This document shows positions 3,392 to 57,710 of a DNA stretch of 64,000 nt, piece after piece. A program made the translations under genes and the position numbers. The stretch is from an uncultured delta proteobacterium (lineage in GTDB: Bacteria > Desulfobacterota > Binatia > Bin18), in NCBI GenBank assembly GCA_963733195.1, contig CAVTCR010000081.1, positions 128,001-192,000 on the forward strand, read 5' to 3'. The notes beneath the pieces were generated by a model that was not told where the DNA came from, ran no database searches, and saw only the letters and a program-made list of their open reading frames with translations. Position 1 is the first letter of the stretch. The number at the start of each line of letters is the position of its first letter.

Positions 3392-6300
3392 ATGCGCCCA
3401 CAAAAACTTACACTCAAAAACTTCATGCCTTTTCGAACCGCCAGTGGCGAAGAGCATGTCGTCGATTTTTCTAATCTCGATCTCTTTGCTATCACCGGCC
3501 CGATGGCAAGTGGGAAGTCTTCCCTGATCGATGCCATTGTTTGGTGTTTGTACGGACGTACTGCTCGTTATGGTGCAGATTCCAAAGGTGTGATCTCTGC
3601 CGGGGAAGGGCTGTGTGAAGTCGCGTTCGATTTTACTGTCGGTGATCGGTGGTTTCGTGCGGTGCGACGCACCGGTAAAACGACGGAATCCGGATTGAGT
3701 GAACGTGAAGGCGAAGAATGGATTCAGGACGAATCAGGGTCAGAGCGGCTCACTGCACGCGTCGAAGAGCTGTTGGGTATCGATTTTGATGGCTTCACCA
3801 AAACGGTCATTTTACCTCAAGGTCGATATGCCGAGTTCTTGAGCAGCAAGCCAAGTGACCGTCGTGAATTATTGGCCAGTATTCTTGAACTCGGTGTTTA
3901 TACTCGCGTGTCTGAGCGTGCGCGAGAAGTCGCTGGACAAGCAAAAGCACGGTCTGACGCTCTACGTGAAACGCTCTCTCAATATACTGGTGTTAGTCGC
4001 GAGCGACTTGAACAGCAACGGCAGGACCTTGTGACGCTTGAACGACAACTGGCAGAAACGACCAACCGAGAAGCTGTCTTTCAGACATTAATGCAAAATG
4101 TAGATGGCCTGACGATACTCATCCGCCGTGAGGCAGAACTGCGCACCGAAGAGCAAACGCGCACGAACGAAAGAACGCAAGCGGTACGAACGCTCACAGA
4201 AGCAGAAGCGCAACTCCAGTCACTTACCCAGAAGCTCGCACAGATTACGACAAATCGCGATGCGCTTGGCTATGACGCCACCCGCCATGACATTCTTCGA
4301 CGGGCGGTGGGACATCTGCGCGAGTATCACTCGGCGCGACACGAAGCTGAGCGTAAACAACAAGAATTAGGGTCGCTTCAGAAAGACATTGATGCGCTTG
4401 CCCAACGCCTCGTGATAAAAGAACAAGAAGTGACTACCATGCAACAGGAGTATCACGTCCATGCGACTGCTCTACAGGCAGAGATTACGCAGGGTGGCGA
4501 CATTGCCGTCTTGACAGAGAAGTTGTCACAGGCAACGCAGTGGAAAAAATTGCAACACGAGCAACACCGACTGCAGGCACAACACCAAAAGCAAGGTGAG
4601 AAGTTGGCCCAGGTTCAGCAGTCGCTCACTCAGTGCGTTCAACGGGAAGAAGCAAAAGACCAGGGGCTCCGCGCATTACAGCAACAGCGTGAGCGATTAC
4701 GTGAAGAAGAACAAGAAAAAGCGCGCTTAGAGGACGAAGCAAAAGCGCTTGGGAAAGAGTTGCAAGAGGCAGTCCGTGAAGAAAAACGACTCACCAAAGA
4801 ATGTGAAGATGCGCGTGCTGCTGTACTTATTGCAGAGCAAGAACTACAGCAGCAGCAGGACACCCTTACGCGGGCCGAGCAACATGAGAAAGACGCGCTC
4901 CGCGGGTTGGAGGAGACACGTCGCCAATACGAAGTCGAACATTTGCGTGCCTCGTTGCATGTCGGTGAGGCATGTCCTGTTTGTGAAGTAAAGGTGCAAC
5001 GCGTACCAGAAGTGTCCGAGTTAGCGATGGGAGATCTTGCAACCCTCCAACGGTCAGTGGACACCTCCAAAGCTACGGCACAGAGCGTACGTCAGGCGTT
5101 GCAAAAAGCCCACGCGACTGTCGCTGCCGCGACGACCAAGAAAGAGTCTGCGGAGCAAGAGTTGACTGTACGCGAACAGAAACGACGCGAAGCGCAGGAA
5201 CGATTTGTCAGTCGGTTTCCTGGATTTGCATCACTTGCTACTGCGCTCAGCGGTGTGCAACAACAGCGACAAGCTTTGGCAACTGCAGTCAAAGAGGCTG
5301 AAGCAAAAGCTCAAGTGACGGAAAAAGAAAAACTTGCTTTAACCCGGCAACGAGAACAGGAACAAAAGGAAGAGGCAACTCTGCAGGAAGCTATACGCAG
5401 TCTGACGGCGCAACTGGAAACGAACACCGCTCACATTGCCGAGCTTACTCAAGCACTCGCTGCATTCATCAAGACTGGTGAGGATCCGGAGTCCACGCTG
5501 ACCGCACGACGGCAACGGCTCGCGCAGCTTGAACAACAAGTGAAAGCGGCAGAGCAACAGCAGCGTGCGCTGGAATCGGCAATGGCAACAGAAAAGACCA
5601 ACAAAGTGCAAAAGGAAGGGACTGCTGGTATTCTAGCTTCTCAGCTAGAGGCGGCTGAACAACACGCACACCGTGAGGCGCACGCAGTGCGCGAAAATCT
5701 CACTCTTCCTGTTGACGCGATTTTGCCGGAACTGGCCACGCTCGATGGCGAACTGACTGGACTGACACAGAAACAACAACAGCATGCGGTTTTCCAGCAG
5801 CAAGAAAAAGCGCTGCTGGACGAACAAGGAAAACAGGACCGTCTCGTGACGAGGCTCCGTGCTGATTTGCAAGCCCGAGAGCGTGCATTAGCAGAAACAC
5901 AGCAAAGTGTTACGAAATGTGAGCAAGAACGGATACAAGCGCAGCAGGATTTGCGGACGGAAGTGCAAAAGGCTGGTTTGTCGGATATCGGTGAAGACGG
6001 ACAAGGGTTGAAAGAACAGCTTGCGAGCATTCATGCACAAGGAATCTCCATCCGTGAACGTCGCAGCCGATTAGAAGCTGAGATGTCCGAACTCGAACGG
6101 CGATGTACAGAAAAGGGACAGGAAGAAGAAAAACTGCGCGCCGCAGATACCGAAGGTCAGTTGGCGACCGACCTGCACAAGCTGTTGGGGTCAGAGTTTA
6201 CCGACTTCCTGTCACAAGAAGCAGTAGAAGCGTTGATGCGTGATGCGACCCTGCATCTACAACGACTCACGCATGGTCGTTACTCTTTTAACATCGCCTA

Positions 6301-30926: not shown

Positions 30927-31439
30927 ATGGCAGTCAAAAGGCAAAGAGACAGTCGAGAGTCCAAGGTCCAAGATCTAGAGTCTTTCGCATTACGCATTAC
31001 GTGTTACGTGTTACGCACCCTTTGGCCTTTGGACTTGAGACTTTGGACTTCGTTCGTATTGCTATGGTTGTTCCTTACTCCGATTAGCGCTGCTGCGCAA
31101 ATGACGGGTGGGGGATGGACGATAAGCCTCTACGGTATGGTACAGGTTGAGCCAGGCAATGGTGTTACCACGCTGAAAGTCAGAGACGAACACATCCGTT
31201 TCGTCATTCATAACATCCAGTGTTCCGATCGAAACTTTTCAACCGGGCGTTTCCTGTCGGATGTGACCAATAGAGAGCCAGGTCTCTACATCAAAGGTCC
31301 GGAAGAATGGTTGGATTTGTTGATTAACGAACGTCCGGGCAAACGTGTCCTGCAAATGCGCGGGGCCTACTACCCAGACTCGCGCATGTTGCTCCTTCAT
31401 AAGCTGGAACGATTTCAGGGAACACCGATACCAAAGTAG
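30927..31439 (+). CDS. Hypothetical exported protein
   Basis: Hydrophobic stretch ending ISAAA-Q; N-region encoded by heptamer arrays; start uncertain. Confidence 0.55.
   Translation: MAVKRQRDSRESKVQDLESFALRITCYVLRTLWPLDLRLWTSFVLLWLFLTPISAAAQMTGGGWTISLYGMVQVEPGNGVTTLKVRDEHIRFVIHNIQCSDRNFSTGRFLSDVTNREPGLYIKGPEEWLDLLINERPGKRVLQMRGAYYPDSRMLLLHKLERFQGTPIPK
30951..31049 (+). repeat. Nested heptamer arrays in a signal-peptide region
   Basis: agtcgag agtccaa ggtccaa gatctag; cattacg cattacg tgttacg tgttacg; ctttggc ctttgga cttgaga ctttgga. Confidence 0.85.
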
Positions 31440-31491: not shown

Positions 31492-33196
<1,705 letters not shown>

Positions 33197-33216
<20 letters not shown>

Positions 33217-33260
33217 AGGATGGGGAGAACAAACCCCTAATTCCTCACCTCCACCTCTAG
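33197..33260 (+). repeat. Heptamer hairpin at the gspE/gspF junction
   Basis: gattgga ggtaaga gttagag gatgggg / cccctaa ttcctca cctccac ctctag. Confidence 0.6.
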
Positions 33261-33265
33261 AAGAT

Positions 33266-34495
33266 ATGCCTATCTACGCATATACAGGGTTAACCTCACA
33301 AGGCCGAACGGTCGCGGGCGTGATCGATGCCGATAGTCCCAAGACTGCCCGGGTGTCGTTACGTCGTACAGGGATTTTCCCGACCGCTGTTCATGAAGAG
33401 CAGGCAAATCGAACCACGGCGACTGGGAGCACTCTAGACACCTCTGGCTACGGGTTTGGCCGTATATCGGCACAAGATTTAGCACTGCTGACGCGACAGT
33501 TTGCGACACTGACTAAAGCGGGACTGGCGCTCATTGAGTGCTTAGGGACGCTTATTGATCAGGTGGAGCAGGTACGCCTCAAACGTGTTCTAACCCACGT
33601 GCGTCAACAGGTGCGTGAAGGGAGATCCTTAGCCGATGCTTTGCAGGCTCATCCCCGAGTGTTCTCCGGAATCTATGTAAACATGGTACGTGCGGGAGAG
33701 GAAAGTGGGACTCTCGAAGCGGTCCTAGCACGATTGGCCGACTACAATGAAAGTCAAGCTCGTCTTCTGCGCACCGTGCAGTCTGCGCTCACATACCCTG
33801 TAATCATGATTGTCGTATCCCTCGCCATCCTCATTTTTCTGTTGACGTATGTGGTCCCTCAAGTCACACGGATTTTTACCGAAACCGGTCGTCCATTGCC
33901 GCTCGCTACACGGATCCTACTTAGTTGTTCTTCATTTTTTGCTGACTACTGGTGGAGCCTGCTTTTGGCCCTCGCGGTTGGAGGACTAGTCGCTGCACGA
34001 CTCATCCGCACCCCAAAAGGACGCGAGTGGTACGATCGTACGCTTTTACGGCTACCGTGGGTGGGGCGCCTGTTTCAGCGTCTGAACGTTGCTCGCTTTG
34101 CCCGTACGTTAAGCACGTTACTTGCCAGCGGAGTGCCAATCCTAACAGCACTCAGTATTGTGACACATTTACTAAGTAACTCCGTGTTGCGGCGTGCGGT
34201 AGAAGGCGCGCGTGCCAGCGTTCAGGAAGGGGAGAGTTTAGCCGCACCGCTGCGGCGGAGTGGTCTTTTTCCTGCTTTGCTGACACAGATGATTGCTGTC
34301 GGGGAGCGGAGTGGGGAGCTAGAGGGTATGTTGGCACGGGCTGCGGATGCGTATGATGAGGAGGTCACTGTCGCCCTCTCGCGGCTGACGAGTCTGTTGG
34401 AACCTCTCACTATTCTGCTGATGGGTGGAGTCATCTTGTTTATCGTGTTGGCGATTCTCCTACCGATCTTTGACCTGAACCAATTAGTGCATTGA
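33266..34495 (+). CDS. gspF: Type II secretion inner-membrane platform protein
   Basis: TRQFATL, AGEESG.L, ALTYP, GERSGEL, LLEP. Confidence 0.95.
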   Translation: MPIYAYTGLTSQGRTVAGVIDADSPKTARVSLRRTGIFPTAVHEEQANRTTATGSTLDTSGYGFGRISAQDLALLTRQFATLTKAGLALIECLGTLIDQVEQVRLKRVLTHVRQQVREGRSLADALQAHPRVFSGIYVNMVRAGEESGTLEAVLARLADYNESQARLLRTVQSALTYPVIMIVVSLAILIFLLTYVVPQVTRIFTETGRPLPLATRILLSCSSFFADYWWSLLLALAVGGLVAARLIRTPKGREWYDRTLLRLPWVGRLFQRLNVARFARTLSTLLASGVPILTALSIVTHLLSNSVLRRAVEGARASVQEGESLAAPLRRSGLFPALLTQMIAVGERSGELEGMLARAADAYDEEVTVALSRLTSLLEPLTILLMGGVILFIVLAILLPIFDLNQLVH

Positions 34496-34544
34496 TGCAT
34501 AGGCAGGGCCTTGCTAAGCTAACTATGGTTGTTGAGGAGGTGGT

Positions 34545-35100
34545 ATGGCGGTATCAAAGTTCAGAGTTCAAAGTTCAAAGTCCAGAGTTCAAAACTTTAA
34601 AGTCTCTAGTTTCTGGCTTCTGGTTCAAAGTCCAGAGTCCAGAGTCCGAACCTCAGCCTACTGGCTACTGGCTACTGGCTACTGACTACCGTTCCCGCGG
34701 CTTCACCCTCATCGAAATCATGGTGGTGGTGTTTATCTTAGGACTATTGGTGACTTTAGTCGCGCCAAAAGTGATGGGGAGAACCGACGAGGCAAAGCGG
34801 ACGAAAGCAGCGGCAGACCTGCGTGCCGTGCAGCAAGCGCTGAATCTCTATCGTCTCGATAATGGCGGCTATCCCACCACCGACCAGGGGTTACAGGCCC
34901 TGGTGACGAAGCCCCAGAATGGAGCGATCCCACAACGTTGGAATCCTGAGGGGTATCTCGAAAAGATGCAGACCGATCCTTGGGGCCATCCGTACATGTA
35001 TCTGAGCAATGGCGAACGCTATTCACTGAAGTCGCTTGGCGCAGATGGTGAGGAAGGTGGGGACGGAAAGTATGCAGATTTGGATAGTCGAGACTTATAG
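34545..35100 (+). CDS. gspG: Major pseudopilin with a repeat-encoded leader (SD-led ATG 34545 is 1 nt out of frame; in-frame ATG at 34525)
   Basis: G/FTLIEIMVV at 34699, YRLDNGGYPTTDQGLQAL, DPWG.PY, SLGADG. Confidence 0.93.
34553..34690 (+). repeat. About 19 heptamers forming the gspG leader
   Basis: ttcaaag/tccagag units, tttctgg units, tactggc x3 tactgac. Confidence 0.9.
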
Positions 35101-35720
35101 GGAGGAAGGAGGGAAACGGCGAAACAGGGAAACGGCGAAAGGGCGACGAACGATCTCTTTACTGTTTCACGTTTCATGTCTCTGACCCAAGCCTCAAGCC
35201 TCAAGCCTCAAACCCCAAAGGTTTTACCCTCCTCGAACTCTCCCTTGTCTTGTTCATCATTGGACTGTTAGTGACGATTCTTCTTCCTCGTTTTGGCGAT
35301 ATTGGTGGAGCACGTTTGGAGAGCAGTGCCCGGCGGCTGGCTGCATTAGTGCGCTACCTGAATGGCGAAGCAGCCTTCAGTGGTCAGGTTTACCGAATTA
35401 GTTATGACCTAGGGGAGCAGTCCTACGCGGTGCAGGTGTTAGTGCCGTCCCGTAGAGCAACCGAGTTCGTGGCTGATTCATCGCCGATGTCGCAGCCGGT
35501 GAGGCTACCGTCGGGTATCGCTTTTGCTGATATTCGCGTTTCCCAGGCTGGGCGGATGAATGCGGGGCAAGTGTTCACGCACTTTTATCCGCAGGGGTAT
35601 GTTGACCCGACAGTAGTGCATTTGCGCGACCAACAGGCACGGATGATGACCGTAATAATCCCGCCAATCACCGGCGAGGCGAAGGTGTATGAAGGGTATG
35701 TGGATGGAACGAACCGATAG
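35072..35720 (+). CDS. gspH: Minor pseudopilin; no in-frame ATG/GTG/TTG before the cleavage site as assembled
   Basis: G/FTLLELSLVLFIIG at 35220, FYPQG; overlapping ATG 35072 is out of frame by 1 nt. Confidence 0.85.
35111..35219 (+). repeat. Octamer plus heptamer arrays forming the gspH leader
   Basis: gggaaacg gcgaaaca gggaaacg gcgaaagg; gtttcac gtttcat; caagcct x3. Confidence 0.9.
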
Positions 35721-36243
35721 GCGTTTGGAGTTCAGAGTCCAGGACCAAAAGTTCGAGGTTCGAGGTTCGAGGTTCGAGGTCCAAAGATATTCAAAGTTCA
35801 AAGTTCGGAGTTCAAAGTCTACGCATCACGCAACACGCAACACGCAACACGGTTCAAGTCCCCAGTCCCCAGTCCCAAGCCCCAAGGGCTTTACCCTCCT
35901 CGAAGTCCTTGTCGCGCTGGCCGTCCTTGCTGTCGCGCTGGTAGGCTTGCTTGGCTTACACAATCGAAACCTGCTGCTGATGATACGAGCAGAGCGGCTG
36001 AGCACTGCGACTTTGCTTGCGCGCGAGGTGCTCACGCGTACGCAGCTAGAAGGTCAAAACGCTGCGAAGGTGACAAATGGTGACTTCTCTGCCTTTCATC
36101 CAGGTCAATATTCAGAGTTCCGTTGGCGTCGGACGGTGCGCCCCGCGCCAGTCGAAGGATTATGGGAACTCCGAGTTAATGTTTTGTGGGGAGAACGGGA
36201 AGACGAACGGTGCGAGTTGACGCTGTTTACACCGTTGAGCTGA
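35689..36243 (+). CDS. gspI: Minor pseudopilin with a leader of up to 67 aa encoded by repeats
   Basis: G/FTLLEVLVALAVLA at 35887, F.WR, V.V.W. Confidence 0.88.
   Translation: MKGMWMERTDRRLEFRVQDQKFEVRGSRFEVQRYSKFKVRSSKSTHHATRNTQHGSSPQSPVPSPKGFTLLEVLVALAVLAVALVGLLGLHNRNLLLMIRAERLSTATLLAREVLTRTQLEGQNAAKVTNGDFSAFHPGQYSEFRWRRTVRPAPVEGLWELRVNVLWGEREDERCELTLFTPLS
35724..35886 (+). repeat. About 22 heptamers forming the gspI leader
   Basis: ttcgagg x4, ttcaaag units, acgcaac x3, tccccag x2 tcccaag ccccaag. Confidence 0.9.
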
Positions 36244-36247
36244 AGAA

Positions 36248-36393
36248 AGTAGTCAGGAGCCAGTAGGAAAAAACGATGAACACGGAACGATGAATGATGA
36301 ACGGAGAACAGAATCCCTCTTTAATTCAGCAGTCAGGCTTCGGCATTCTGCGTTCCCGCTGTGCTGGCTACTGGCTACTGGCTACTGGCTACT
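36248..36393 (+). repeat. Heptamer arrays at the gspI/gspJ junction and in the gspJ leader
   Basis: agtagtc aggagcc agtag; acgatga/atgatga units; ctggcta x4. Confidence 0.9.
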
Positions 36394-37079
36394 CTTCTCG
36401 TGGTTTTACTTTGCTAGAAGTTCTTGTCGCCAGCTCTATCCTTAGCATCGTCCTTGCCATCCTCTACGGCGTGTTCTCACAAACCCTGACAAGTAAACAG
36501 ATCGCGGAGGAACGCTCTACTCTATCCCGTACGGCACGAGTGGTGTTGCTGCGTATAGGGGAAGACTTGCAAGCAAGTTTCCCCTTTGCTCCTGAGAATG
36601 CACGGTTTATTGGCAAGACACACCGGACCTCCACATTTCCTCAGGCGTCATTGTCCTTCATGTCTTTCGCCAATGCGCAATTGACTAACGTCGGTCGTGA
36701 AGGCGATTGGAGTGAGATTGTATACGACCTCGTACCAGATCCCTTCGCGCCGACCTTATGGCAACTGGTACGACGCGTTCATCTTAATTCAGAGCCTGCT
36801 CGCTTTGAACCAGATGAGGAAATTCTGCCACTCCTCTCGCGCGTACAAGGTCTCCGTTTTCGCTTCTTTGATGGACGGACATGGTCTGAAGAATGGGGAC
36901 AAGACCAGACCCGAGGGCGCGTTCCACAAGCTGTTGAAGTCGAAATTATACTAGCAATGGCAGAAAAGCCTGGAGTCAAGAGTAACGAACAGTTAGAGGA
37001 TGTGACGTTCTCAACTCTGGTTGACTTGCCACTGGCTCGCCCAGTTGGAGCTGCGGGGCGCGTTGGAGGAAATTCATGA
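36294..37079 (+). CDS. gspJ: Minor pseudopilin
   Basis: G/FTLLEVLVA at 36402, L.FRFFDG..W..EW, P.AVEV. Confidence 0.88.
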   Translation: MMNGEQNPSLIQQSGFGILRSRCAGYWLLATGYSSRGFTLLEVLVASSILSIVLAILYGVFSQTLTSKQIAEERSTLSRTARVVLLRIGEDLQASFPFAPENARFIGKTHRTSTFPQASLSFMSFANAQLTNVGREGDWSEIVYDLVPDPFAPTLWQLVRRVHLNSEPARFEPDEEILPLLSRVQGLRFRFFDGRTWSEEWGQDQTRGRVPQAVEVEIILAMAEKPGVKSNEQLEDVTFSTLVDLPLARPVGAAGRVGGNS

Positions 37080-38032
37080 GAATGGAATCCTCACACCAGA
37101 CTGGGGCCGCACTCGTCACAACATTACTTGCTGTGACGTTGCTGACTATTGCTGTGGTCGAGTTTGCCTACTCTAGTCAAGTGGACTATCACCTCGCGCA
37201 TAATGCACTCAAGGCATTACAGGCGAACTACCTGGCGCGGTCAGGAGTCAACCTAGCCATGCTCGTGCTTAAGCGTGATGGTCGCTCGGCCTCTGGCATT
37301 GACTCGCTGCGGGATGAATGGGCGCACCCCCTTCCTCCTCTGCCTGTCGGCGAAGGGATGGTGGTGATCCGTGTGAGCGATGAACAGGGAAAAGTAAATC
37401 TGAACGCCCTCCGCAATACGAGCGGAACAATCAATCGCACTTGGCGGGAAGTCACTGAACGTGTGTTTGCCCTTCGCGAGATTGATCTCAATGTTCTGGA
37501 CCCGTTGTTGGATTGGTTGGATGCCGACGATTTTCCCGAGCCACGGGGGGCAGAGCGAGATCACTACGCGCGACTCTCGCCTTCGTATGTGCCGACGAAC
37601 GGCTTTCTCCTGACAATGGGAGAGCTAGGTCGGATCGAGGGGTTTTCGGCGGCTCTGCGTGCTCGGCTAGGGGAGGTCGTCACTGTTCTCCCGAGTAACA
37701 GCACGCCAATCAATGTGAATACGGCTCCTGGAGAAGTGCTTGCGGCGTTGTTTCCGACAGTAGACCATCAGACCCTTGAAGGATTCCTTGTCTCGCGGGT
37801 CGAAACTCCCGTGCATGGAGTCAATGAACTGCGTGATCGTCTCGGCTTCGATCCAAAGGTTTCTCTCGACATGTTGCGATTAGTGTCAGTGCGGAGTGAA
37901 TATTTTGTTGTCACCACGTTGGCAACCGTCGAACCCGTAAGCCAAGGACTCTCCGTTATTATCCAACGTCGCGCGGCAACTGTGACACCTCTCACCTGGC
38001 AGACAGCCCTACCGGTGGCGGTGCAAGGATAA
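37076..38032 (+). CDS. gspK: Minor pseudopilin
   Basis: G/AALVTTL, DEQGKVNLN, DWLDAD, GAE..Y, INVNTAP. Confidence 0.9.
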   Translation: MRMESSHQTGAALVTTLLAVTLLTIAVVEFAYSSQVDYHLAHNALKALQANYLARSGVNLAMLVLKRDGRSASGIDSLRDEWAHPLPPLPVGEGMVVIRVSDEQGKVNLNALRNTSGTINRTWREVTERVFALREIDLNVLDPLLDWLDADDFPEPRGAERDHYARLSPSYVPTNGFLLTMGELGRIEGFSAALRARLGEVVTVLPSNSTPINVNTAPGEVLAALFPTVDHQTLEGFLVSRVETPVHGVNELRDRLGFDPKVSLDMLRLVSVRSEYFVVTTLATVEPVSQGLSVIIQRRAATVTPLTWQTALPVAVQG

Positions 38033-38036
38033 ACCA

Positions 38037-39558
38037 GTGGCACGGCGTATCTTAGCACTTGATCTTGGGTCTCACTCGCTCAAAGCGGCGATGATTGAAA
38101 GTTCGCTGAGTCGCTGCCATGTGACCGGATTCTTTCAGCAGCTTCGTGTGTCAGATCGTTCGTTGGCTGAGCAGCTGCAAGACTTCTGCACTTCGCATCA
38201 GTTACAGGCGGATACGGTGTTGTCCTGTCTCCCAGGAGATATCGTTTCTCACCGATTGTTAAACTTGCCGTTTACTCAGACACGACAAATCAGCCAGGCT
38301 GTTCCTTTTGAACTGGAGAGCCAAATCCCTTTCAGCTTGGATGATATGGTGATCGCTGATCAGATTATCCAGCGGACAGAAGATGGCACGCAGACCCTTG
38401 CCGTAGCAGCGTTGAAGCAGACGATCGCCGAGCATCTCGACGTTTTGATGATGGCGGGATTAGACCCCGCACAAATCATACTCGCTCCATTGGCACCGCT
38501 GACATTGTTGACACTAGCAGGAGCGAACACGAGTGGATTTTCTGCGCTGCTTGATATCGGCGAGAAGCGTACTTCTGTTGTCCTACTCCAGGAGGGAATG
38601 TTTGTTGGTTTACGAACGTTTGAGATCGGCTTGAGTCGTACTGGCGGTTTGGCGGCTTTTCTTCAGGAGTTGCGCTGGACTTTCCTAGCACTGAGTCCAG
38701 ACGAGTCCTTACTGCCTACGAAGATTTTCTTGTGTGGTGGGGGCGCATGCTTTCCTGAATTGCAGAGCGAACTCGAGCGCGAGTTTGCGGTAGAAATTTC
38801 TCCCGTTTCAACAACTCGCTATTCCTTCAATTGCTGAACCTCAACGAGAAAGTCAGGCAGCGTTCGCGACATGCCTTGGGATGGGGTTGCATGAGGCACT
38901 GCGTGGGACAACACCGATGGTGAATCTCCGCCGAGGTGAATTTGTTCCGCAACGCCACAATGAGACTGTTCGCCACGAGTCTCGCCGTCTCGGCTGGTTA
39001 GCGGTTGGGGTTGCTGCGGCTGCCGCACTTGCTTTCATGTTAGATTTGCATCGCTTGAATTTGCGCTATCAGGCGTTACGCCAAGAAACCCGTCGCGCGT
39101 TTGTTGCCACACTACCCGATACACAGACAGTGGTGAACGAAAAGGCACAGCTTGAAGACGCGGTAGAAGCGTTGCAAAAGCGGCAACGCCTCCTACACGG
39201 ATCGTCTACTGGATCACCACTCGATGTTCTCCGTCACTTGAGTGCAGTCGTTCCCGAGCAGATAGCCCTCGATCTTGACGAATGGGCATTTGACGAGGAT
39301 GCCATCCGTCTGCAAGGCACTACCTCGTCGTTTGAAGCAACCGAGGCTATCAAAACTGCTGTTATGAGTCTTGGGCTCTTTCGTGAAGCGCAACTCAAAG
39401 ACGTGAAAACTGTGGCGGGAAGTAAGAAGGTAGCGTTTGGGTTGCAATTGTTCTTCCAGAAAAACGAGACGCAGGAGACAAAACAGGAAGAGAAAAATCG
39501 TGGACACCAAGCAGAAGTAAGGCAACCGAATGCGGATGCTCGAAGGGGAGAAGGATGA
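38037..39558 (+). CDS. gspL: Type II secretion protein L, frameshifted at about 38810-38880
   Basis: LALDLGSHSLK actin-like domain, VPFELESQIPF, LDIG, LCGGGA; second part VNLRRGEF plus TM. Confidence 0.8.
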
Positions 39559-40169
39559 GGAGCTGGCTTTCACTTCCTTCGATGTTCCTCCGAGAAAGAT
39601 TGAGATTGCCTGGCAAGCTCAATGGTGTCGTTCTTGATGTTGTTGCTGGACTTGCTGCTCGCCTTTCGCCCCGAGAACGGGGGTTCGTCGGTCTCGCAGG
39701 GGTCGCCCTTGTTACTCTGTTACTCTCTCTATTTGTCATTGAGCCACTCTGGGATATGCATGGACGCTTGCGGGCAAAAGTTGCAGCAAAAGAACGAGAG
39801 TTAACTGAAGTGGCAGCATTAGCTGATACCTATGAAGCTCTCCGGCGCGAACTGGAAATGGTCGGATCAGCCACTGGTACGGCCCTGTCCCCGTTTGCAT
39901 TTCTCGAAGGACTGACGACGAGTACCCTAGGGCGAGAGAAATTAGCAGCAATCAACCCGGTTGGGCGCGAGGAACGCGGTGGAGTAGCACGAGAGGCCAT
40001 TGAGTTGAAGTTGAGTGGCGTATCGCTGCAAGAGCTAGTGGACCTTTTGTATAAGATTGATGTGACAGGTGCTGCGGTGCGTTGTACCAATCTTGCGATC
40101 AAGAAACGTTATAAGGACCCGTATACTTTCGATGTCACCCTTACCGCCATTGCCCTCAACACCCGATAG
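39555..40169 (+). CDS. gspM: Type II secretion protein M
   Basis: LSPRER plus TM, coiled coil, L.GVSLQELVDLLY.I; operon position. Confidence 0.8.
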   Translation: MRSWLSLPSMFLRERLRLPGKLNGVVLDVVAGLAARLSPRERGFVGLAGVALVTLLLSLFVIEPLWDMHGRLRAKVAAKERELTEVAALADTYEALRRELEMVGSATGTALSPFAFLEGLTTSTLGREKLAAINPVGREERGGVAREAIELKLSGVSLQELVDLLYKIDVTGAAVRCTNLAIKKRYKDPYTFDVTLTAIALNTR

Positions 40170-41088
40170 TGAGGTTGCGCTCTCCGAGACCAGCGCAGTA
40201 CCGGCGATGCTCGTGTTGCGACGATGGACGCCTCCGTTCTCCCCACGTTTTGGATGGGGATTGTATACACTGCTCTGTTTCGGTGTTTTTCTCTTCCTGA
40301 CGTTTCCCGTGGATATTTTGTTACAACGTGTGGTGGTCTCAACAACTCGTGGGACACCGTTACGCGTCCGTTATGCTCAAGGAGAGCTAAATTGGCACGG
40401 GGCTGGTGTCGTGCACGATATGACGATTGAGCATGCGGATACGAACCTCCCTGCGTTCAGACTGAATCGTCTGACTGTCCAACCATCGTGGCTCGGTCTG
40501 TTTTTCGGTCACCCACTGCCGTTGGCTTTTCAGGCTGACTTGTACGGTGGAACGATAAGCGGAACAGTTAAGCAAAGTACGGAGGGACTGAAGACGCATC
40601 TCGTCGTGCAGCGATTAAACTTGGCGCTGTTACCCTTGCTCTTCCCAGGTAAACCTGGAGGACTCAAAGGTTTCCTCACTGGCAGTGGAGATGTCAGTGG
40701 CGATCTCTCGCAGGTGTTTTCTCTGAAAGGCACGCTTGAGCTGGATCTTTCAGAAGGAGCCTTGTCGGCCGGGGTGCTTGGGAAAGTTCCAGTCCCGCCA
40801 TTTCAATCTCTCCAAGGAAAGCTGCGTACAGTGATCCGTGACGGGCGACTCAACATTTCTGACCTCGTCCTTACGGGAGACGGTATTGAAGCCCGCGTGC
40901 AGGGTACACTTACTCTCGGCACCCCACTTCCTCGTAGTGGACTTGATTTTCAACTCACGGCTAAAACCATAGGTTCTCCCCCGCCTCCCTTGGTCGCGCT
41001 GCTTTCACTCCTACCCGTGTCCCCTAACATGCCAGGCGAGCGGCGGGCAACGATTAGTGGTTCGCTTGCTACTCCAGTGATGCGGTAA
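40132..41088 (+). CDS. gspN: Type II secretion protein N (start uncertain)
   Basis: N-terminal TM ending LTFP, ADLYGG, beta-rich repeats, I.GSL..P C-terminus. Confidence 0.75.
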   Translation: MSPLPPLPSTPDSEVALSETSAVPAMLVLRRWTPPFSPRFGWGLYTLLCFGVFLFLTFPVDILLQRVVVSTTRGTPLRVRYAQGELNWHGAGVVHDMTIEHADTNLPAFRLNRLTVQPSWLGLFFGHPLPLAFQADLYGGTISGTVKQSTEGLKTHLVVQRLNLALLPLLFPGKPGGLKGFLTGSGDVSGDLSQVFSLKGTLELDLSEGALSAGVLGKVPVPPFQSLQGKLRTVIRDGRLNISDLVLTGDGIEARVQGTLTLGTPLPRSGLDFQLTAKTIGSPPPPLVALLSLLPVSPNMPGERRATISGSLATPVMR

Positions 41089-54543: not shown

Positions 54544-56830
54544 TTACTTTTCCGTCCCTGGCAAGAGAACACCACCTGATTTCTTATCTGGCGGGGCAGC
54601 AAAGGTTGGTCGATCAAGCTGTTTTTGCCACTGTGGCGGTGCTTTGTGGTCACGCAAGAAATTACGGAACCGGTCGCGCTCGCCAGACGAATGCGCAGCA
54701 ATCTCGGTTTCATCGCGCACGATGTGCGGGGTCAGAAAAATCAACAAATTGATCTTGTCATTATGCACATCGTCCGTACGGAAAAAATTCCCCAACACTG
54801 GCATGTCTTGGAGATACGGAACGCCAGAACGTCGTCGGACCGAGTTGTCGGAGATCAGGCCGCCAATAACCACCGTTTGTCCATTCTTCGCCACCACGGT
54901 CGTACTGGCCGAACGCACGGAGGTTGTGGGGCCGACGAGATCGGGATCACCAACCACAGTCGGTACAATCGCTGAGACTTCTTCATAGACATCGAGTCGG
55001 ACTGTCTCCCCTTCAGAGATCTGTGGTGTGAGCCGTAAGGTGATACCGACATCCTCGCGTTCTACATTAGCAAACAGGTTGTTGAGCTGAGAGGCATCTG
55101 TCGCTCGGCTGGTGATGAACGGTACGTTTTGACCGACTAGAATTTCAGCCTCCTGGTTATCAGCGGTCAATAATGTTGGGGCGGAGAGCACGTTGATGTC
55201 TCTACTGTTTTGCACGGCACGCAACAGTGCAGCTTGTGCAGGAACACGAGTACCATCGGGAAGTTCAATGGTTTTGTTACTCGCCGCAGCGAGCGAGTAA
55301 GCCTGAGAGGCTCGCGGGATTAGTTAAAGCTGTGTTTAAATCTTTAAAATTCGTGCGGCCAAGGGCGACACCCTCACCGCCTAGACTAAAGGCATATTGG
55401 AGTTCAATACCTAACTCCCGGGCTCTCGCCATACTAACTTCGAGAATAATCGCTTCGACGTAGACTTGCCGGCGACGGACATCGAGTTGTTCAATAACTG
55501 TCTTCAAGGTGGCGAAATCTTGTGGCGCGGCGCTAATAAGTAACGAGTTCGTCGTGGGATCTGCAGAAATAGTGACTTCGCTACTGAATTCTGGAGAGCT
55601 CGCGGAAACGGTACCTCCACCGGACGGTGCGGTCGGGAGTTGGGAAGAGGAAGGGGATCGCTCAGCTAATCCTGAACCATAGCGGTCGCTACTTCTGCCG
55701 AAACGTTGATCTCGAGTATAGCGCCGTTCGCGACGAGGAATATTGAGCGAACGGCTTTCTCCTGTGCTGCCGGTGCTACCATCAATTAAGTCTGCCAACA
55801 CTGGCAGTAGCTCTTCGGCATTGGCATATTTGAGCGCGTAGACATGAATCTTGCTGTGGCCTGGCGGAAGTGGGACGTCAAGCTGATGAACTAAACGGTG
55901 GACTGTTTTCAATTCTCGAGGGCCCCCCATGACAATGAGTGAGTTCGTGCGTTCATCGGGTAACACACGTATCGTCCGAGTGCTACTCGAGCTTGGTGGA
56001 GGGTTGTTTGTTGCAGCCGTGGTCGCTGCGGTTGTTATAATCTTGACCCGTGATCCAGTCGGGCTGTCGCTATTGCCCTGATCTTTCATGATTTCTTCAA
56101 TTTTCTTAGATAAATCCGTTGCAATGGCATGCTTGAGGGGAATCACCTCCGTGAGGCGCTCATATCCTTCGACATCAAGGTCCTCTAGCATGCCGAGTAA
56201 GCGCTTGACGTTCGTTGCCGCGTCGGTGAGGATTAACGAATTGGTTTGCGGGTACGGCAGCACTAAACCGTCGCCAGAAACCATCGGCTGTAGGACTTGA
56301 ACCATTTCGGCAGCGCTGACATGGCGTAAAGGAACTAATCGGGTAATAAATTCGTCTCCGACAGTGGCTAACGAACCATTATACAGGGTTGGCAGGCCAA
56401 CTTGTTTCGCTTCTTTACTCGGGACGATTTTTACCACTTGGCCACTTTGTACGGTGGTAAACCCTTTTACTTGCAGGACTGACTGAAAGATGGCGTAGGC
56501 TTCATCTGTGGTGACTTTGGTGGGAGAGATGACCGTGACTTTGCCACGCACTTTCTCATCGACAATAAAGTTTCGATGGGTGATCTCGCTGATGAACTGC
56601 GCCAGGACAGGGATATCGATGTCTTGAAAGTTCATCGTGACCAGGTTGTCTGACGATGGCGGCAGCGGCTTCTTGCCGTTGGTTGCAGGCGCGAACCCGT
56701 GGTGTTGTGTGTCGGCGTCGTCCACGCTGTCGTTCTGCGACTGCGGATGTTGTTGTGTCCAACCCACCGAGCCATGCACAAGCACGAGCAAGGTGGTCAC
56801 CAGACCGATCACATGATTAGCGAATTTCAT
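54544..56830 (-). CDS. gspD: Type II secretion secretin, frameshifted at about 55225-55295
   Basis: MNFQDIDI, VRGKVTVISP, DERTNSL, LDVRRRQVYVEAIILEV, SAPTLLT.DN.EA, VP.L.D.PVLG, IFLTPHIV. Confidence 0.92.
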
Positions 56831-57710
56831 AAGAAAGCGATGTCGGTTGCTGGTTACGAAGCACATCGACTCGGATTTGTGGGTGCCCTTGGAGATCTTG
56901 TAAGAGCTGAAAGGCGGTACTTGGGTCTGAAATTTCTACGCCGTTGACACGTTGGATCACATCTCCGTTTTTCAAGCCAATGCGATCAATGAGGCTGTCA
57001 GGTTTGATTTGAAACAGTCGGAAGCCCTGCACGACACCCTCTTGTAGCGAATAGGGAACCGCACGGACTTGGGTGAACAGTTCACTCAGGTTGTTGATCG
57101 CATGATCAACCTCTCGGCGGTCGATCTGGTAACTATCTTGCGCCAGTTGTCGCACGCCTTCCGGAGTACTTTGACTTGCGAGCGTAGAGATAGGGACGGT
57201 TGGCGGCTGTCCCGGTATTGCAGGTAAGTCTTTGGGCAAGAGGAGCGTTTCTCGTTTTCCGTCACGCTCAATGGTGATGCGATCCCAACCTACTTGCACC
57301 AGGATGATACCAGGAGCTACGAGATCTCCCTCGCGGTACAGCCCTTGCGTACGGGTGGTTTGGTTCTCGACGATGGCAAAGGCACGGTCCTGCATACTGG
57401 TGGCGGTGCCAAGGAGTCGGATATTTGCATTACTGGTGGCAGCGACGAGTGCTGTTCCTTCGTGCGTCGTCGGTGCTTTTGTAGAATTAAAAAGGTCGCG
57501 CACGTAGACAATCGCGTATGAGGAGAGCGGTGGCTTTGTTTGTGGAGTGCGAGAAAATGAAGTCTCATGTCGCTGCGGAACTGACGGCGAGAGCGCCAGT
57601 TTGGTGGCGACGACCGTGTTGACAGAGAGAGCGCAAAAGTACGCTAGTCCTGTTAACAGTGACACACGCGCACTGAGGAGAAGAACCCGCACACCTACCA
57701 CCACATCCAC
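56817..57710 (-). CDS. gspC: Type II secretion protein C (TM-HR-PDZ)
   Basis: N-terminal TM, LLGT...AFAIVE, PDZ GF.L..IKPDS...IGLKNGDVI..VNG. Confidence 0.88.
   Translation of the reverse strand: MDVVVGVRVLLLSARVSLLTGLAYFCALSVNTVVATKLALSPSVPQRHETSFSRTPQTKPPLSSYAIVYVRDLFNSTKAPTTHEGTALVAATSNANIRLLGTATSMQDRAFAIVENQTTRTQGLYREGDLVAPGIILVQVGWDRITIERDGKRETLLLPKDLPAIPGQPPTVPISTLASQSTPEGVRQLAQDSYQIDRREVDHAINNLSELFTQVRAVPYSLQEGVVQGFRLFQIKPDSLIDRIGLKNGDVIQRVNGVEISDPSTAFQLLQDLQGHPQIRVDVLRNQQPTSLSYEIR

What the first reader, a model, noticed from the sequence alone, without database searches (positions are those of the whole stretch)
34545..36404. Leader peptides of four consecutive pseudopilins (GspG, H, I, J) are built from repeat arrays
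Seen: before each G/FTLxE cleavage site (34699, 35220, 35887, 36402) lie roughly 110-165 nt of heptamer or octamer arrays. They give leaders such as ...FKVQSPESEPQPTGYWLLATDYRSR-G and ...FEVRGSRFEV...HATRNTQH..SPQSPVPSPK-G (up to 67 aa in GspI). Established: T2SS pseudopilin leaders are normally only about 6-10 aa and are removed by prepilin peptidase. Inference: the cleavable leader is either a safe haven for an invasive repeat, or the arrays tune pseudopilin stoichiometry through mRNA structure or frame. The TACTGGC/TACTGAC run before gspG (34672-34689) is 17/18 complementary to gtagtcaggagccagtag after gspI (36249-36266), which could close a loop around gspG-H-I.
Basis: partly seen in the sequence, partly recalled or inferred. 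Interest (0 to 1): 0.8.

Follow-up and report, generated by a model that had tools for sequence, protein, structure and literature searches.

The report
Repeat-built long leaders on four pseudopilins
In one lineage of uncultured soil bacteria (Binatia), the throw-away leader peptides of four neighbouring secretion-system subunits have grown from about 8 to 30-90 residues by filling up with 7-base tandem repeats that are really translated.

Summary

- **Repeat class:** The arrays belong to a genome-wide, mostly intergenic class of heptamer repeats. This 2 kb is the densest cluster in the 6.9 Mb genome.
- **Translation:** In relatives, a conserved SD+start lies upstream of the arrays. It is in frame with the cleavage Gly and stop-free at 127 of 152 distinct sites, against 11 and 13 in the two control frames. 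149 of 152 have some in-frame canonical start. I conclude the arrays are translated.
- **Leader properties:** The leaders are long (commonly 30-87 aa), hydrophilic and net positive.
- **Lineage:** More distant Binatia have about 8-aa GspG leaders and almost no arrays.
- **Best reading:** The cytoplasmic, cleaved leader is a permissive sink for a lineage-specific heptamer-repeat process.
- **Window frames:** The window's gspG main start is out of frame and gspH has no start. These are probably consensus errors, because rpoB, rpoC, gspD and gspL are also frameshifted in this assembly.
- **RNA loop:** The proposed 1.5-kb loop is unsupported. The same arm has a partner 101 nt away.

This is a new variant of known things, of moderate interest.

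The parts
31492..34495 (+). gspE (31492-33216) and gspF (33200-34495), upstream genes of the operon
   Evidence: Pfam T2SSE E 2.1e-145 and T2SSF E 1.6e-61
34534..34547 (+). Conserved Shine-Dalgarno (GAGGAGGTGG) plus ATG 34545, the family's usual gspG start. In this assembly it is 154 nt from the Gly codon, so out of frame.
   Evidence: in frame in 8 of 12 genomes
34554..34689 (+). gspG leader arrays: TCAAAGT x5.7 (34554-34593), AGTCCAG x2.7 (34629-34647), CTACTGG x4.6 (34658-34689)
   Evidence: TRF
34699..35100 (+). Mature GspG, starting at the Gly(-1) codon of G|FTLIE
   Evidence: Pfam T2SSG E 1.2e-34 and N_methyl
35072..35074 (+). Ancestral gspH start ATG inside the 3' end of gspG. In this assembly it is 148 nt from the Gly codon, so out of frame, and no in-frame start exists.
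35110..35211 (+). gspH leader arrays: GAAACGGC 8/16-mer (35110-35146), degenerate GTTTCAC units (~35163-35182, not called by TRF), CAAGCCT x3.4 (35188-35211)
   Evidence: TRF; sequence
35220..35720 (+). Mature GspH from the Gly(-1) codon
   Evidence: N_methyl E 2.8e-5; GspH PF12019 E 0.0067, below cut-off; named by position in the operon
35689..35886 (+). gspI leader: ATG 35689 inside the gspH 3' end, then four abutting arrays, GTTCGAG (35751-35780), TTCAAAG (35790-35818), ACGCAAC (35821-35851), CAAGTCC/CCCCAGT (35855-35886). 66 codons, in frame.
35887..36243 (+). Mature GspI from the Gly(-1) codon
   Evidence: N_methyl E 1.6e-7 only; named by position
36248..36266 (+). Inverted copy of the TACTGGC/TACTGAC units. 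It is complementary to 34672-34689 (94%) and to 36368-36393 (89%).
   Evidence: local fold z -2.0
36272..36393 (+). gspJ start region and leader: AACGATG array (36272-36303, holds ATG and TGA), in-frame ATG 36294, CTGGCTA x4.3 array (36364-36393)
36402..37079 (+). Mature GspJ from the Gly(-1) codon
   Evidence: Pfam T2SSJ E 8.9e-10 and N_methyl
37076..41088 (+). gspK, gspL (split here into 38037-38837 and 38881-39558), gspM, and a 339-aa ORF. There are no arrays at these junctions.
   Evidence: Pfam; gspL is one continuous ORF in G010
54544..57710 (-). gspC (56817-57710) and gspD, split into 55277-56866 (N0 + Secretin_N) and 54544-55224 (Secretin)

Best explanation
A lineage-specific mutational process fills unconstrained DNA in this Binatia family with short tandem arrays of 7-nt units. 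In the compact gsp operon, the start codons of gspH and gspI lie inside the preceding gene. The only unconstrained DNA there is the stretch coding the leader of the class III signal peptide.

Inferred from the established biology of prepilins: the leader stays in the cytoplasm, is cut off after Gly(-1) by prepilin peptidase and is discarded. Arrays can therefore accumulate there as long as three conditions hold: the total length keeps the reading frame, no unit carries a stop on the sense strand, and the peptide stays hydrophilic and net positive.

The result is hypervariable translated leaders of about 30-87 aa made of 7-residue peptide repeats, because each heptamer array is read in all three frames. 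The mature pseudopilins are unchanged. Arrays occasionally move between the four leaders of one genome, probably by recombination anchored on the very similar GFTLLE-coding DNA. I see no evidence for a dedicated function.

Shown: the arrays, their translation (by comparative frame conservation), and the restriction to one lineage. Inferred: cleavage of the long leaders, neutrality, and the recombination route.
For: 1. Frame conservation in 12 genomes. The conserved start is in frame and open in gspG 8 of 12, gspH 8 of 10, gspI 11 of 11 and gspJ 11 of 11.

2. Frame conservation in the larger set, 152 distinct sites including metagenome contigs.
- In-frame SD+start with an open path: 127 of 152, against 11 and 13 in the two shifted control frames.
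- Any in-frame canonical start: 149 of 152, against 77 and 57.
- Open for >=30 codons: 144 of 152, against 67 and 64.

3. There is rarely a start near the cleavage site. Most sites have none within 20 codons, and none of the near ones has an SD.

4. Among the 10 leader pairs with >=93% identity, 7 have no indel and 3 have only 21-nt differences: 21 nt in L110/L112 and L111/L112, and 18+3 nt in L121/L122.

5. All 38 in-frame leaders are net positive, with mean GRAVY -0.58. The other five frames of the same DNA carry 2.8-4.9 stops per 100 codons.

6. Lineage. Close relatives have a median of 1.0 arrays/kb and a median GspG leader of 39 aa (n=57). More distant Binatia have medians of 0 and 8 aa (n=84). 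Spearman rho is 0.77 (n=122, kin not independent).

7. In distant relatives the previous stop lies 13-58 nt before the Gly in 15 of 18 gene junctions examined (75% or more of each genome's junctions); the other three are 86, 141 and 475 nt. The gspH ATG already lies inside gspG.

8. Arrays are a genome-wide class. There are 1160 period-7 TRF rows against 224 (period 6) and 400 (period 8). 762 of 1239 merged arrays are intergenic, in 20% of the genome. The unit vocabulary is restricted: 291 unit classes among 1144 arrays.

9. Arrays are also read through inside real proteins: the GlnE linker, within or beside the AAA_16 domain of a Trans_reg_C regulator, and an adenylate cyclase N-terminus.

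10. Two prepilin peptidase genes are present. The leader is cytoplasmic and variable in length (PMC10191384, passages read).

11. Different-gene leader tails share a 12-mer in 9 of 177 within-locus pairs, against 94 of 8306 between-locus pairs.
Against: - No protein, Ribo-seq or transcript data exist. Translation and cleavage are inferred.
- The density here is far above ordinary spacers. Only 4 of 896 co-directional spacers of 100-200 nt hold >=3 arrays, yet four consecutive leaders do, and this persists across genera. That could mean long leaders are favoured, not merely tolerated.
- Eight of the 9 other prepilin-like genes of the same genome keep short leaders (3-16 aa) without arrays within 250 nt. 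The ninth (C78:65974) has a 32-aa leader with 1 array. So a cleavable leader alone does not attract arrays.
- 3 of 152 sites lack any in-frame start (window gspH, G002 gspG, G014 gspG). G002 is not an error-rich assembly (2 of 81 long ORFs split).
- For gspJ only 14 of 27 sites have an SD by my crude rule.
- Kin are not independent, and my gene calls are home-made.
Confidence: 0.7

Rival explanations
1. The long, repeat-built leaders are selected for a function. They might set relative translation or processing rates of the four pseudopilins (stoichiometry), space overlapping genes, or form mRNA hairpins around start sites. The arrays would be the evolvable material for that tuning.
For: This is the highest array density in the genome and far above ordinary spacers. 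Long leaders persist in all four genes across many genera although the arrays themselves turn over. An inverted arm could pair across the gspJ start.
Against: There is no conserved sequence, length or structure. Leaders of 94-96%-identical GspG proteins differ almost completely. The hairpin is weak (z -2.0) and the inverted arm is absent at that place in G002. Rfam finds nothing. G024 has leaders of 15 and 17 aa for gspI and gspJ.
Confidence: 0.13
2. The arrays act as a phase-variation (contingency) switch. Slipped-strand gain or loss of 7-nt units shifts the frame between the start and the cleavage site and turns single pseudopilins on and off, as CTCTT repeats do in the leader-coding part of Neisseria opa genes.
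For: The unit is not a multiple of 3 and lies inside the leader-coding DNA. Off-frame main starts are seen in the window (gspG, gspH), G002 (gspG, gspH), G001 (gspG) and G014 (gspG). One low-depth contig of run X2 (97.7% alike over 256 nt) carries 14 extra bases in the gspH leader, which makes the distance 162 nt, in frame. The opa precedent is from PMC3745409 (passage read).
Against: 149 of 152 sites keep an in-frame start. Tracts are short (about 3-6 units) and imperfect. The window assembly has frameshifts in rpoB, rpoC, gspD and gspL, and about 15 of 87 long orthologues are split, so its off states are probably errors. The X2 difference comes as 1+7+5+1 bases, which fits a 12-nt in-frame difference plus two single-base errors equally well. 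The close-pair indels seen are 21 nt.
Confidence: 0.08
3. The arrays are untranslated spacers. Translation starts at a non-canonical codon a few codons before the Gly, for example the CTG in TAC TGG CTA CTG before gspG and gspJ, giving classical ~8-aa leaders.
For: CTG codons lie 9 codons before the Gly in gspG and gspJ of the window. The window's gspH has no canonical in-frame start. Heptamer arrays are mostly intergenic elsewhere.
Against: This would not explain why the upstream SD+start is in frame and stop-free at 127 of 152 sites against 11 and 13 in control frames. It would not explain why close-pair indels are 21 nt. No SD precedes the near-site codons.
Confidence: 0.04

Closest known systems
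Class III signal peptides with long leaders (type IVb pilins; Streptococcus sanguinis T4aP major pilins)
   Same: A hydrophilic, cytoplasmic leader ends in Gly and is followed by a hydrophobic helix with Glu5. It is cut by prepilin peptidase, and its length is known to vary (PMC10191384, passages read).
   Different: These are T2SS pseudopilins, with four genes in a row. Leaders are commonly 30-87 aa, made of heptamer DNA arrays, and unalike even between near relatives. That T4b leaders are about 15-30 aa is recalled, not from a call.
Neisseria opa genes: CTCTT repeats in the leader-peptide-coding sequence (phase variation)
   Same: Tandem repeats whose unit is not a multiple of 3 lie in the leader-coding part of an envelope protein gene, so copy number sets the frame (PMC3745409, passage read).
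   Different: opa has one long homogeneous tract that switches at about 1e-3 per generation. Here there are several short, imperfect arrays of different units, and the frame is kept in nearly all genomes (149 of 152).
Heptanucleotide simple-sequence repeats of bacteria (Mrazek 2007 as cited in PMC4679880; TAACTGA repeats of Beggiatoaceae and cyanobacteria; cyanobacterial STRR, recalled)
   Same: Many short tandem arrays of 7-nt units, mostly intergenic, with a sporadic phylogenetic distribution and indels in 7-nt steps between strains (PMC4679880, passages read).
   Different: Here there are many unit types (291 classes), no single motif, no fixed position before start codons, and arrays read through inside coding DNA. 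A CCCCAGT-type array at 35855-35886 resembles STRR1 only by my recall.
Tandem repeats in Borg elements that create disordered protein regions
   Same: Fast-evolving tandem repeats inside ORFs add unstructured peptide (PMC9879509, abstract from the search listing only).
   Different: The host is a bacterial chromosome. The unit is 7 nt, so each array must be read in all three frames and only net multiples of 3 survive.

Membership tests
T2SS pseudopilins (type IV pilin-like, class III signal peptide) | N-terminal G|F-T-L-x-E motif followed by a hydrophobic helix | tested here: met
   Pfam N_methyl PF07963 in all four genes (E 1.8e-8, 2.8e-5, 1.6e-7, 2.7e-8)
T2SS pseudopilins (type IV pilin-like, class III signal peptide) | Subunit-specific globular domain | tested here: inconclusive
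   GspG PF08334 E 1.2e-34 and GspJ PF11612 E 8.9e-10 pass. GspH PF12019 scores 17.4 bits, below the cut-off of 21. GspI has no domain hit. H and I are named by position.
T2SS pseudopilins (type IV pilin-like, class III signal peptide) | Operon with GspE ATPase, GspF platform, GspK/L/M, and secretin GspD/GspC | tested here: met
   Pfam hits for E, F, K, L, M, C and D. gspC and gspD lie 14 kb away on the other strand. gspD and gspL are frameshifted in this assembly.
T2SS pseudopilins (type IV pilin-like, class III signal peptide) | Prepilin peptidase present, and leader actually cleaved | not testable with these tools
   Two Peptidase_A24 genes are in the genome (C52:77432, C50:202827). Cleavage of the long leaders was not observed.
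T2SS pseudopilins (type IV pilin-like, class III signal peptide) | Short leader (about 6-10 aa): usual, not defining | tested here: not met
   Leaders are commonly 30-87 aa in this lineage; the median is 8 aa in more distant Binatia.
Phase-variable contingency locus (slipped-strand mispairing) | Non-triplet tandem repeat inside the reading frame | tested here: met
   Heptamer arrays lie between start and cleavage site.
Phase-variable contingency locus (slipped-strand mispairing) | ON and OFF frame states common among strains | tested here: not met
   149 of 152 sites have an in-frame start. The window's OFF states are suspect because of assembly errors.
Phase-variable contingency locus (slipped-strand mispairing) | Copy-number polymorphism within a population; high reversible switching rate | tested here: inconclusive
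   Only Logan contigs were available. One contig of depth 2.6 carried +14 nt. Raw reads of the source sample were not available.
Heptanucleotide SSR arrays (LSSR/STRR-like) | Many tandem arrays of 7-nt units genome-wide, in excess over neighbouring periods | tested here: met
   1160 rows of period 7 against 224 (period 6) and 400 (period 8)
Heptanucleotide SSR arrays (LSSR/STRR-like) | Mainly intergenic | tested here: met
   762 of 1239 arrays lie in the 20% of the genome that my gene calls leave non-coding.
Heptanucleotide SSR arrays (LSSR/STRR-like) | The named unit sequences (TAACTGA; STRR1-3) | not tested
   The top units here are AAGAATG, ACTACTG and AACTGAC. They were not compared with the published units; STRR units are recalled only.

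The most novel reading that the evidence does not exclude
The long leaders are not just tolerated. The heptamer arrays, spread among the four genes by recombination on the conserved GFTLLE-coding DNA, would be an evolvable module. It would set or switch the output of each pseudopilin, through frame, translation rate or processing delay. That would be a contingency-type control of a type II secretion pseudopilus in a free-living soil bacterium, and part of a wider process in which non-triplet repeats write new peptide segments into proteins.
Probability: 0.13. Interest if true: 0.75.

Novelty: new variant of a known kind. Interest (0 to 1): 0.5.

Why it matters
- **Tolerance of the leader.** If the inferred processing holds, the leader of a class III signal peptide can be stretched about ten-fold and rewritten at will while the mature pseudopilin stays conserved. 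That would bear on how prepilin peptidase and SRP/Sec recognise their substrates, and on gene callers and pilin finders that expect short leaders.
- **Non-triplet repeats in coding DNA.** It is a clean natural case of a 7-nt repeat living inside coding DNA. Selection is visible only as frame-keeping, stop avoidance and charge.
- **A marker for one lineage.** A Binatia lineage is marked by a heptamer-repeat process that also reaches linkers of ordinary proteins.
- **A practical warning.** This MAG has many frameshift errors, so frame-based claims from it need read support.

Tried and rejected
- **Phase variation.** I rejected this as the main reading after finding that G000 splits rpoB and rpoC and about 15 of 87 long orthologues, against 2 of 81 in the reverse test.
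- **Public runs.** None holds more than 0.31 of the stretch's words. Laying X1-X4 gave only short, low-depth contigs. Parts without cover say nothing. The one informative record is the +14 nt contig of X2.
- **Gap lengths.** A census over 134 leader pairs was uninformative because most pairs are too diverged to align: 68 of 994 gaps were multiples of 7 and 260 were multiples of 3. Only the 10 pairs at >=93% identity were used.
- **Stop bias in spacers.** Arrays in co-directional spacers are stop-free on the sense strand in 169 of 411 cases. This is not interpretable, because my gene caller absorbs stop-free arrays into ORFs.
- **Long-range RNA loop.** Not supported. Rfam at E<=1 gives 0 matches.
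- **Literature.** Searches for Binatia/Binatota together with heptamer, tandem-repeat, leader-peptide or T2SS terms listed no paper holding a Binatia term. Only the top 12 and 10 rows were seen. Supplements are closed.
- **Apparent long GspG matches.** Matches spanning 510-595 nt in L030, L033 and others looked like insertions. My two translations were in the wrong frame and showed nothing. I did not pursue it, and they may be joined hits to the neighbouring gspH N-terminus.
Full report
**What is there.** The window is G000:C81:128001-192000 of a 6.95-Mb, 87-contig MAG. Titles of its closest relatives name the class Binatia, some under older 'Deltaproteobacteria' labels.

Positions 31492-41088 hold a type II secretion operon:
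- gspE (T2SSE, E 2.1e-145) and gspF (T2SSF, E 1.6e-61).
- gspG (T2SSG, E 1.2e-34), then three further genes with the N_methyl motif. The last of these is GspJ (E 8.9e-10). The middle two are called H and I by position; GspH scores below Pfam's cut-off and GspI has no domain hit.
- gspK, gspL and gspM.
- gspC and gspD lie 14 kb further on, on the other strand.

By my sum they make up about half of the ~608 nt between the upstream starts and the Gly codons.

**Is it more than chance?** Yes.
- Genome-wide, period 7 stands out: 1160 TRF rows, against 224 for period 6 and 400 for period 8.
- Only 56 exact arrays of >=3 copies exist in the genome, and 5 of them lie in this 1.8 kb.
- After merging there are 1239 arrays. 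This is the densest 2-kb stretch, with 10 arrays; the next has 7.
- With a home-made gene caller, 762 of 1239 arrays fall in the 20% of the genome that is intergenic.
- They favour short co-directional spacers: 18% of the 896 spacers of 100-200 nt hold one, but only 4 of 896 hold three or more.
- The units come from a restricted vocabulary: 291 classes among 1144 arrays, with the top 20 classes covering 44%. The units seen in the leaders also occur elsewhere in the genome.

So the arrays belong to a genome-wide repeat class, and the four leaders are an extreme concentration of it.

**Are the arrays translated?** The window alone cannot say, so I compared relatives.

In 12 genomes of the same family, each gene has a conserved start upstream of the arrays:
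- gspG: GAGGAGGTG plus ATG after gspF.
- gspH: an ATG inside the last codons of gspG.
- gspI: ATGs inside the end of gspH.
- gspJ: an ATG just after gspI.

That start is in frame with the cleavage Gly and stop-free in gspG 8 of 12, gspH 8 of 10, gspI 11 of 11 and gspJ 11 of 11.

Adding metagenome contigs gives 152 distinct sites. I dropped sites with less than 200 nt upstream, sites with a mature ORF under 40 aa, and sites with no BLAST match to the four window proteins. Identical 230-nt contexts were counted once.

| Test | True frame | Control frame +1 | Control frame +2 |
|---|---|---|---|
| In-frame SD+start with an open path | 127 of 152 | 11 | 13 |
| Any in-frame canonical start | 149 of 152 | 77 | 57 |
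| Open for >=30 codons | 144 of 152 | 67 | 64 |

Further points in the same direction:
- Starts close to the cleavage site are rare and lack an SD.
- Among the 10 near-identical leader pairs (>=93% identity), 7 have no indel and 3 have only 21-nt differences. L110/L112 and L111/L112 differ by 21 nt, and L121/L122 by 18+3 nt.
- The 38 in-frame leaders of the 12 genomes (the 6 off-frame ones were left out) are all net positive and hydrophilic: mean 46.6 aa, GRAVY -0.58.
- The other five frames of the same DNA carry 2.8-4.9 stops per 100 codons.
- All array units inside the window's leaders are stop-free on the + strand by my reading. Only about 59% of array units genome-wide are stop-free on a given strand (my arithmetic).

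I conclude that the arrays are read as protein. Each heptamer array is read in all three frames and gives a 7-residue peptide repeat.

**Lineage and origin.** Relatives whose GspG N-terminus is >=40/48 identical (n=57) have a median of 1.0 heptamer arrays per kb in the locus and a median GspG leader of 39 aa. More distant Binatia (n=84) have medians of 0 and 8 aa. Spearman rho is 0.77 for n=122, with kin not independent.

In the six distant relatives I looked at, the previous stop lies 13-58 nt before the next Gly codon in 15 of 18 gene junctions. The other three are 86, 141 and 475 nt. The gspH ATG already sits inside gspG. So the arrays were inserted into an existing, compact leader-coding stretch.

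Leaders of genomes whose mature GspG is 94-96% identical are almost unalignable. Turnover is therefore fast.

Tails of different leaders in one genome sometimes match. Examples are gspG/gspJ in the window and G001, and gspI/gspJ sharing nearly all of the last 60 nt in G010. A 12-mer is shared in 9 of 177 within-locus pairs, against 94 of 8306 between-locus pairs. I read this as occasional recombination anchored on the similar GFTLLE-coding DNA. That is an inference.

**Not special to prepilins as such.** Eight of the 9 other prepilin-like genes of G000 have in-frame starts 3-16 codons upstream and no array within 250 nt. The ninth has a 32-aa leader with 1 array.

Heptamer arrays are also read through inside ordinary proteins:
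- the central linker of GlnE (aa ~467-510, between Pfam domains);
- around and within the AAA_16 domain of a Trans_reg_C regulator;
- ahead of an adenylate cyclase domain.

The common factor is unconstrained sequence, whether coding or not.

**The window's own frames.**
- The SD-ATG at 34545 is 154 nt from the gspG Gly, so out of frame, with a stop 16 nt before the Gly. Only the non-conserved ATGs at 34495 and 34525 are in frame.
- gspH has no in-frame start. Its ancestral ATG at 35072 is 148 nt from the Gly.

This looked like repeat-driven phase variation. However, gspD is split by a frameshift. gspL is split too, whereas G010 has one continuous ORF.

A test with 131 long ORFs from 400 kb of the same-genus genome G002 settled it. 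89 had a >=70% match: 87 were fully covered, 2 were partial, and the rest had no such hit. Of the 87, 71 are in a single frame and 16 were listed as split in G000. One of the 16 is a paralogue artefact. The split genes include rpoB (three frames) and rpoC (two frames).

The reverse test gives 79 single and 2 split. ORFs of >=1000 aa number 8.9 per Mb in G000 against 27.5 per Mb in G002.

The assembly is therefore rich in indel errors, and its off-frame leaders are most likely errors too. One contig of run X2 (depth 2.6, 6 mismatches in 256 nt) has 14 extra bases in the gspH leader, which puts the ATG in frame. The bases come as 1+7+5+1, so a 12-nt in-frame difference plus two single-base errors fits as well as a 2-unit slip.

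G002 (gspG, gspH) and G014 (gspG) remain unexplained off-frame cases.

**RNA structure.** The 17/18 complementarity is real. The same arm (36248-36266) also matches 36368-36393 at 89%, only 101 nt away. That local fold is weak, with z -2.0 and 7 of 200 shuffles folding as well. The inverted arm is absent at that place in G002. Rfam finds nothing.

**Known context.**
- Leaders of class III signal peptides are cytoplasmic, hydrophilic and variable in length, and are cut at the membrane face by prepilin peptidase (PMC10191384, passages).
- Heptanucleotide repeats are the commonest long SSR class in many bacteria, and TAACTGA arrays are known in Beggiatoaceae and cyanobacteria (PMC4679880, passages).
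- CTCTT repeats in the opa leader-coding DNA cause phase variation (PMC3745409, passage).
- My searches listed nothing on Binatia and such repeats (only the top rows were seen).

**Verdict.** This is a real and well-supported oddity: translated, repeat-built, hypervariable long leaders on four consecutive T2SS pseudopilins, confined to a heptamer-rich Binatia lineage. It is best read as a permissive sink (confidence 0.7). A function for the long leaders (0.13) or a frame switch (0.08) is not excluded. It is a new variant of known kinds, of moderate interest.

Noticed in passing
G000:C71:133065-141175 and 13 other places: The MAG that holds the window has many frameshifts relative to its same-genus relative G002. 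rpoB is read in three frames and rpoC in two, and about 15 of 87 long orthologues are split. The reverse test gives 2 of 81. ORFs of >=1000 aa are three times rarer per Mb. These are probably consensus indel errors.
   Followed up: yes
window 54544-56866 (- strand): The secretin gene gspD is split into an N0/Secretin_N part (55277-56866) and a Secretin part (54544-55224) in different frames. The shift lies near a short ctcg-ctcg duplication around 55285-55295.
   Followed up: partly
window 38037-39558: gspL is in two ORFs in different frames, whereas G010 has one continuous ORF. The homology changes frame at a CCC run near 38800-38806.
   Followed up: partly
G000:C3:44382-44511; C10:43427-43825; C16:7174-7248 (loci L184, L183, L185): Heptamer arrays are read through inside ordinary genes: the central linker of GlnE, around and within the AAA_16 domain of a Trans_reg_C/TPR regulator, and the N-terminal part of an adenylate cyclase/AAA protein.
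   Followed up: partly
window 30927-31439: A 170-aa ORF with no Pfam hit has two heptamer arrays (30986-31017, 31020-31050) in its first 40 codons, ahead of what looks like a signal-peptide-like hydrophobic stretch. This may be another N-terminal extension through arrays, or a miscalled start.
   Followed up: no
whole genome G000: The commonest heptamer units (AAGAATG, ACTACTG, AACTGAC) carry stop codons. Only 36% of array units are stop-free on both strands, against 62% of random genomic heptamers. Many intergenic arrays would therefore stop translation in all three frames.
   Followed up: partly
L024 (G010) 5100-5700; L143; L025: The last ~60 nt of the leaders of two different pseudopilin genes in one genome share most of their 12-mers (36 of 49 in L024 gspI/gspJ). 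This suggests conversion between neighbouring genes.
   Followed up: partly
L026 (G006) ~5550-5980: The gspJ of G006 has an open frame of 144 codons upstream of the cleavage site, with the first ATG 141 codons away. It is far longer than in the other genomes and also full of arrays.
   Followed up: no
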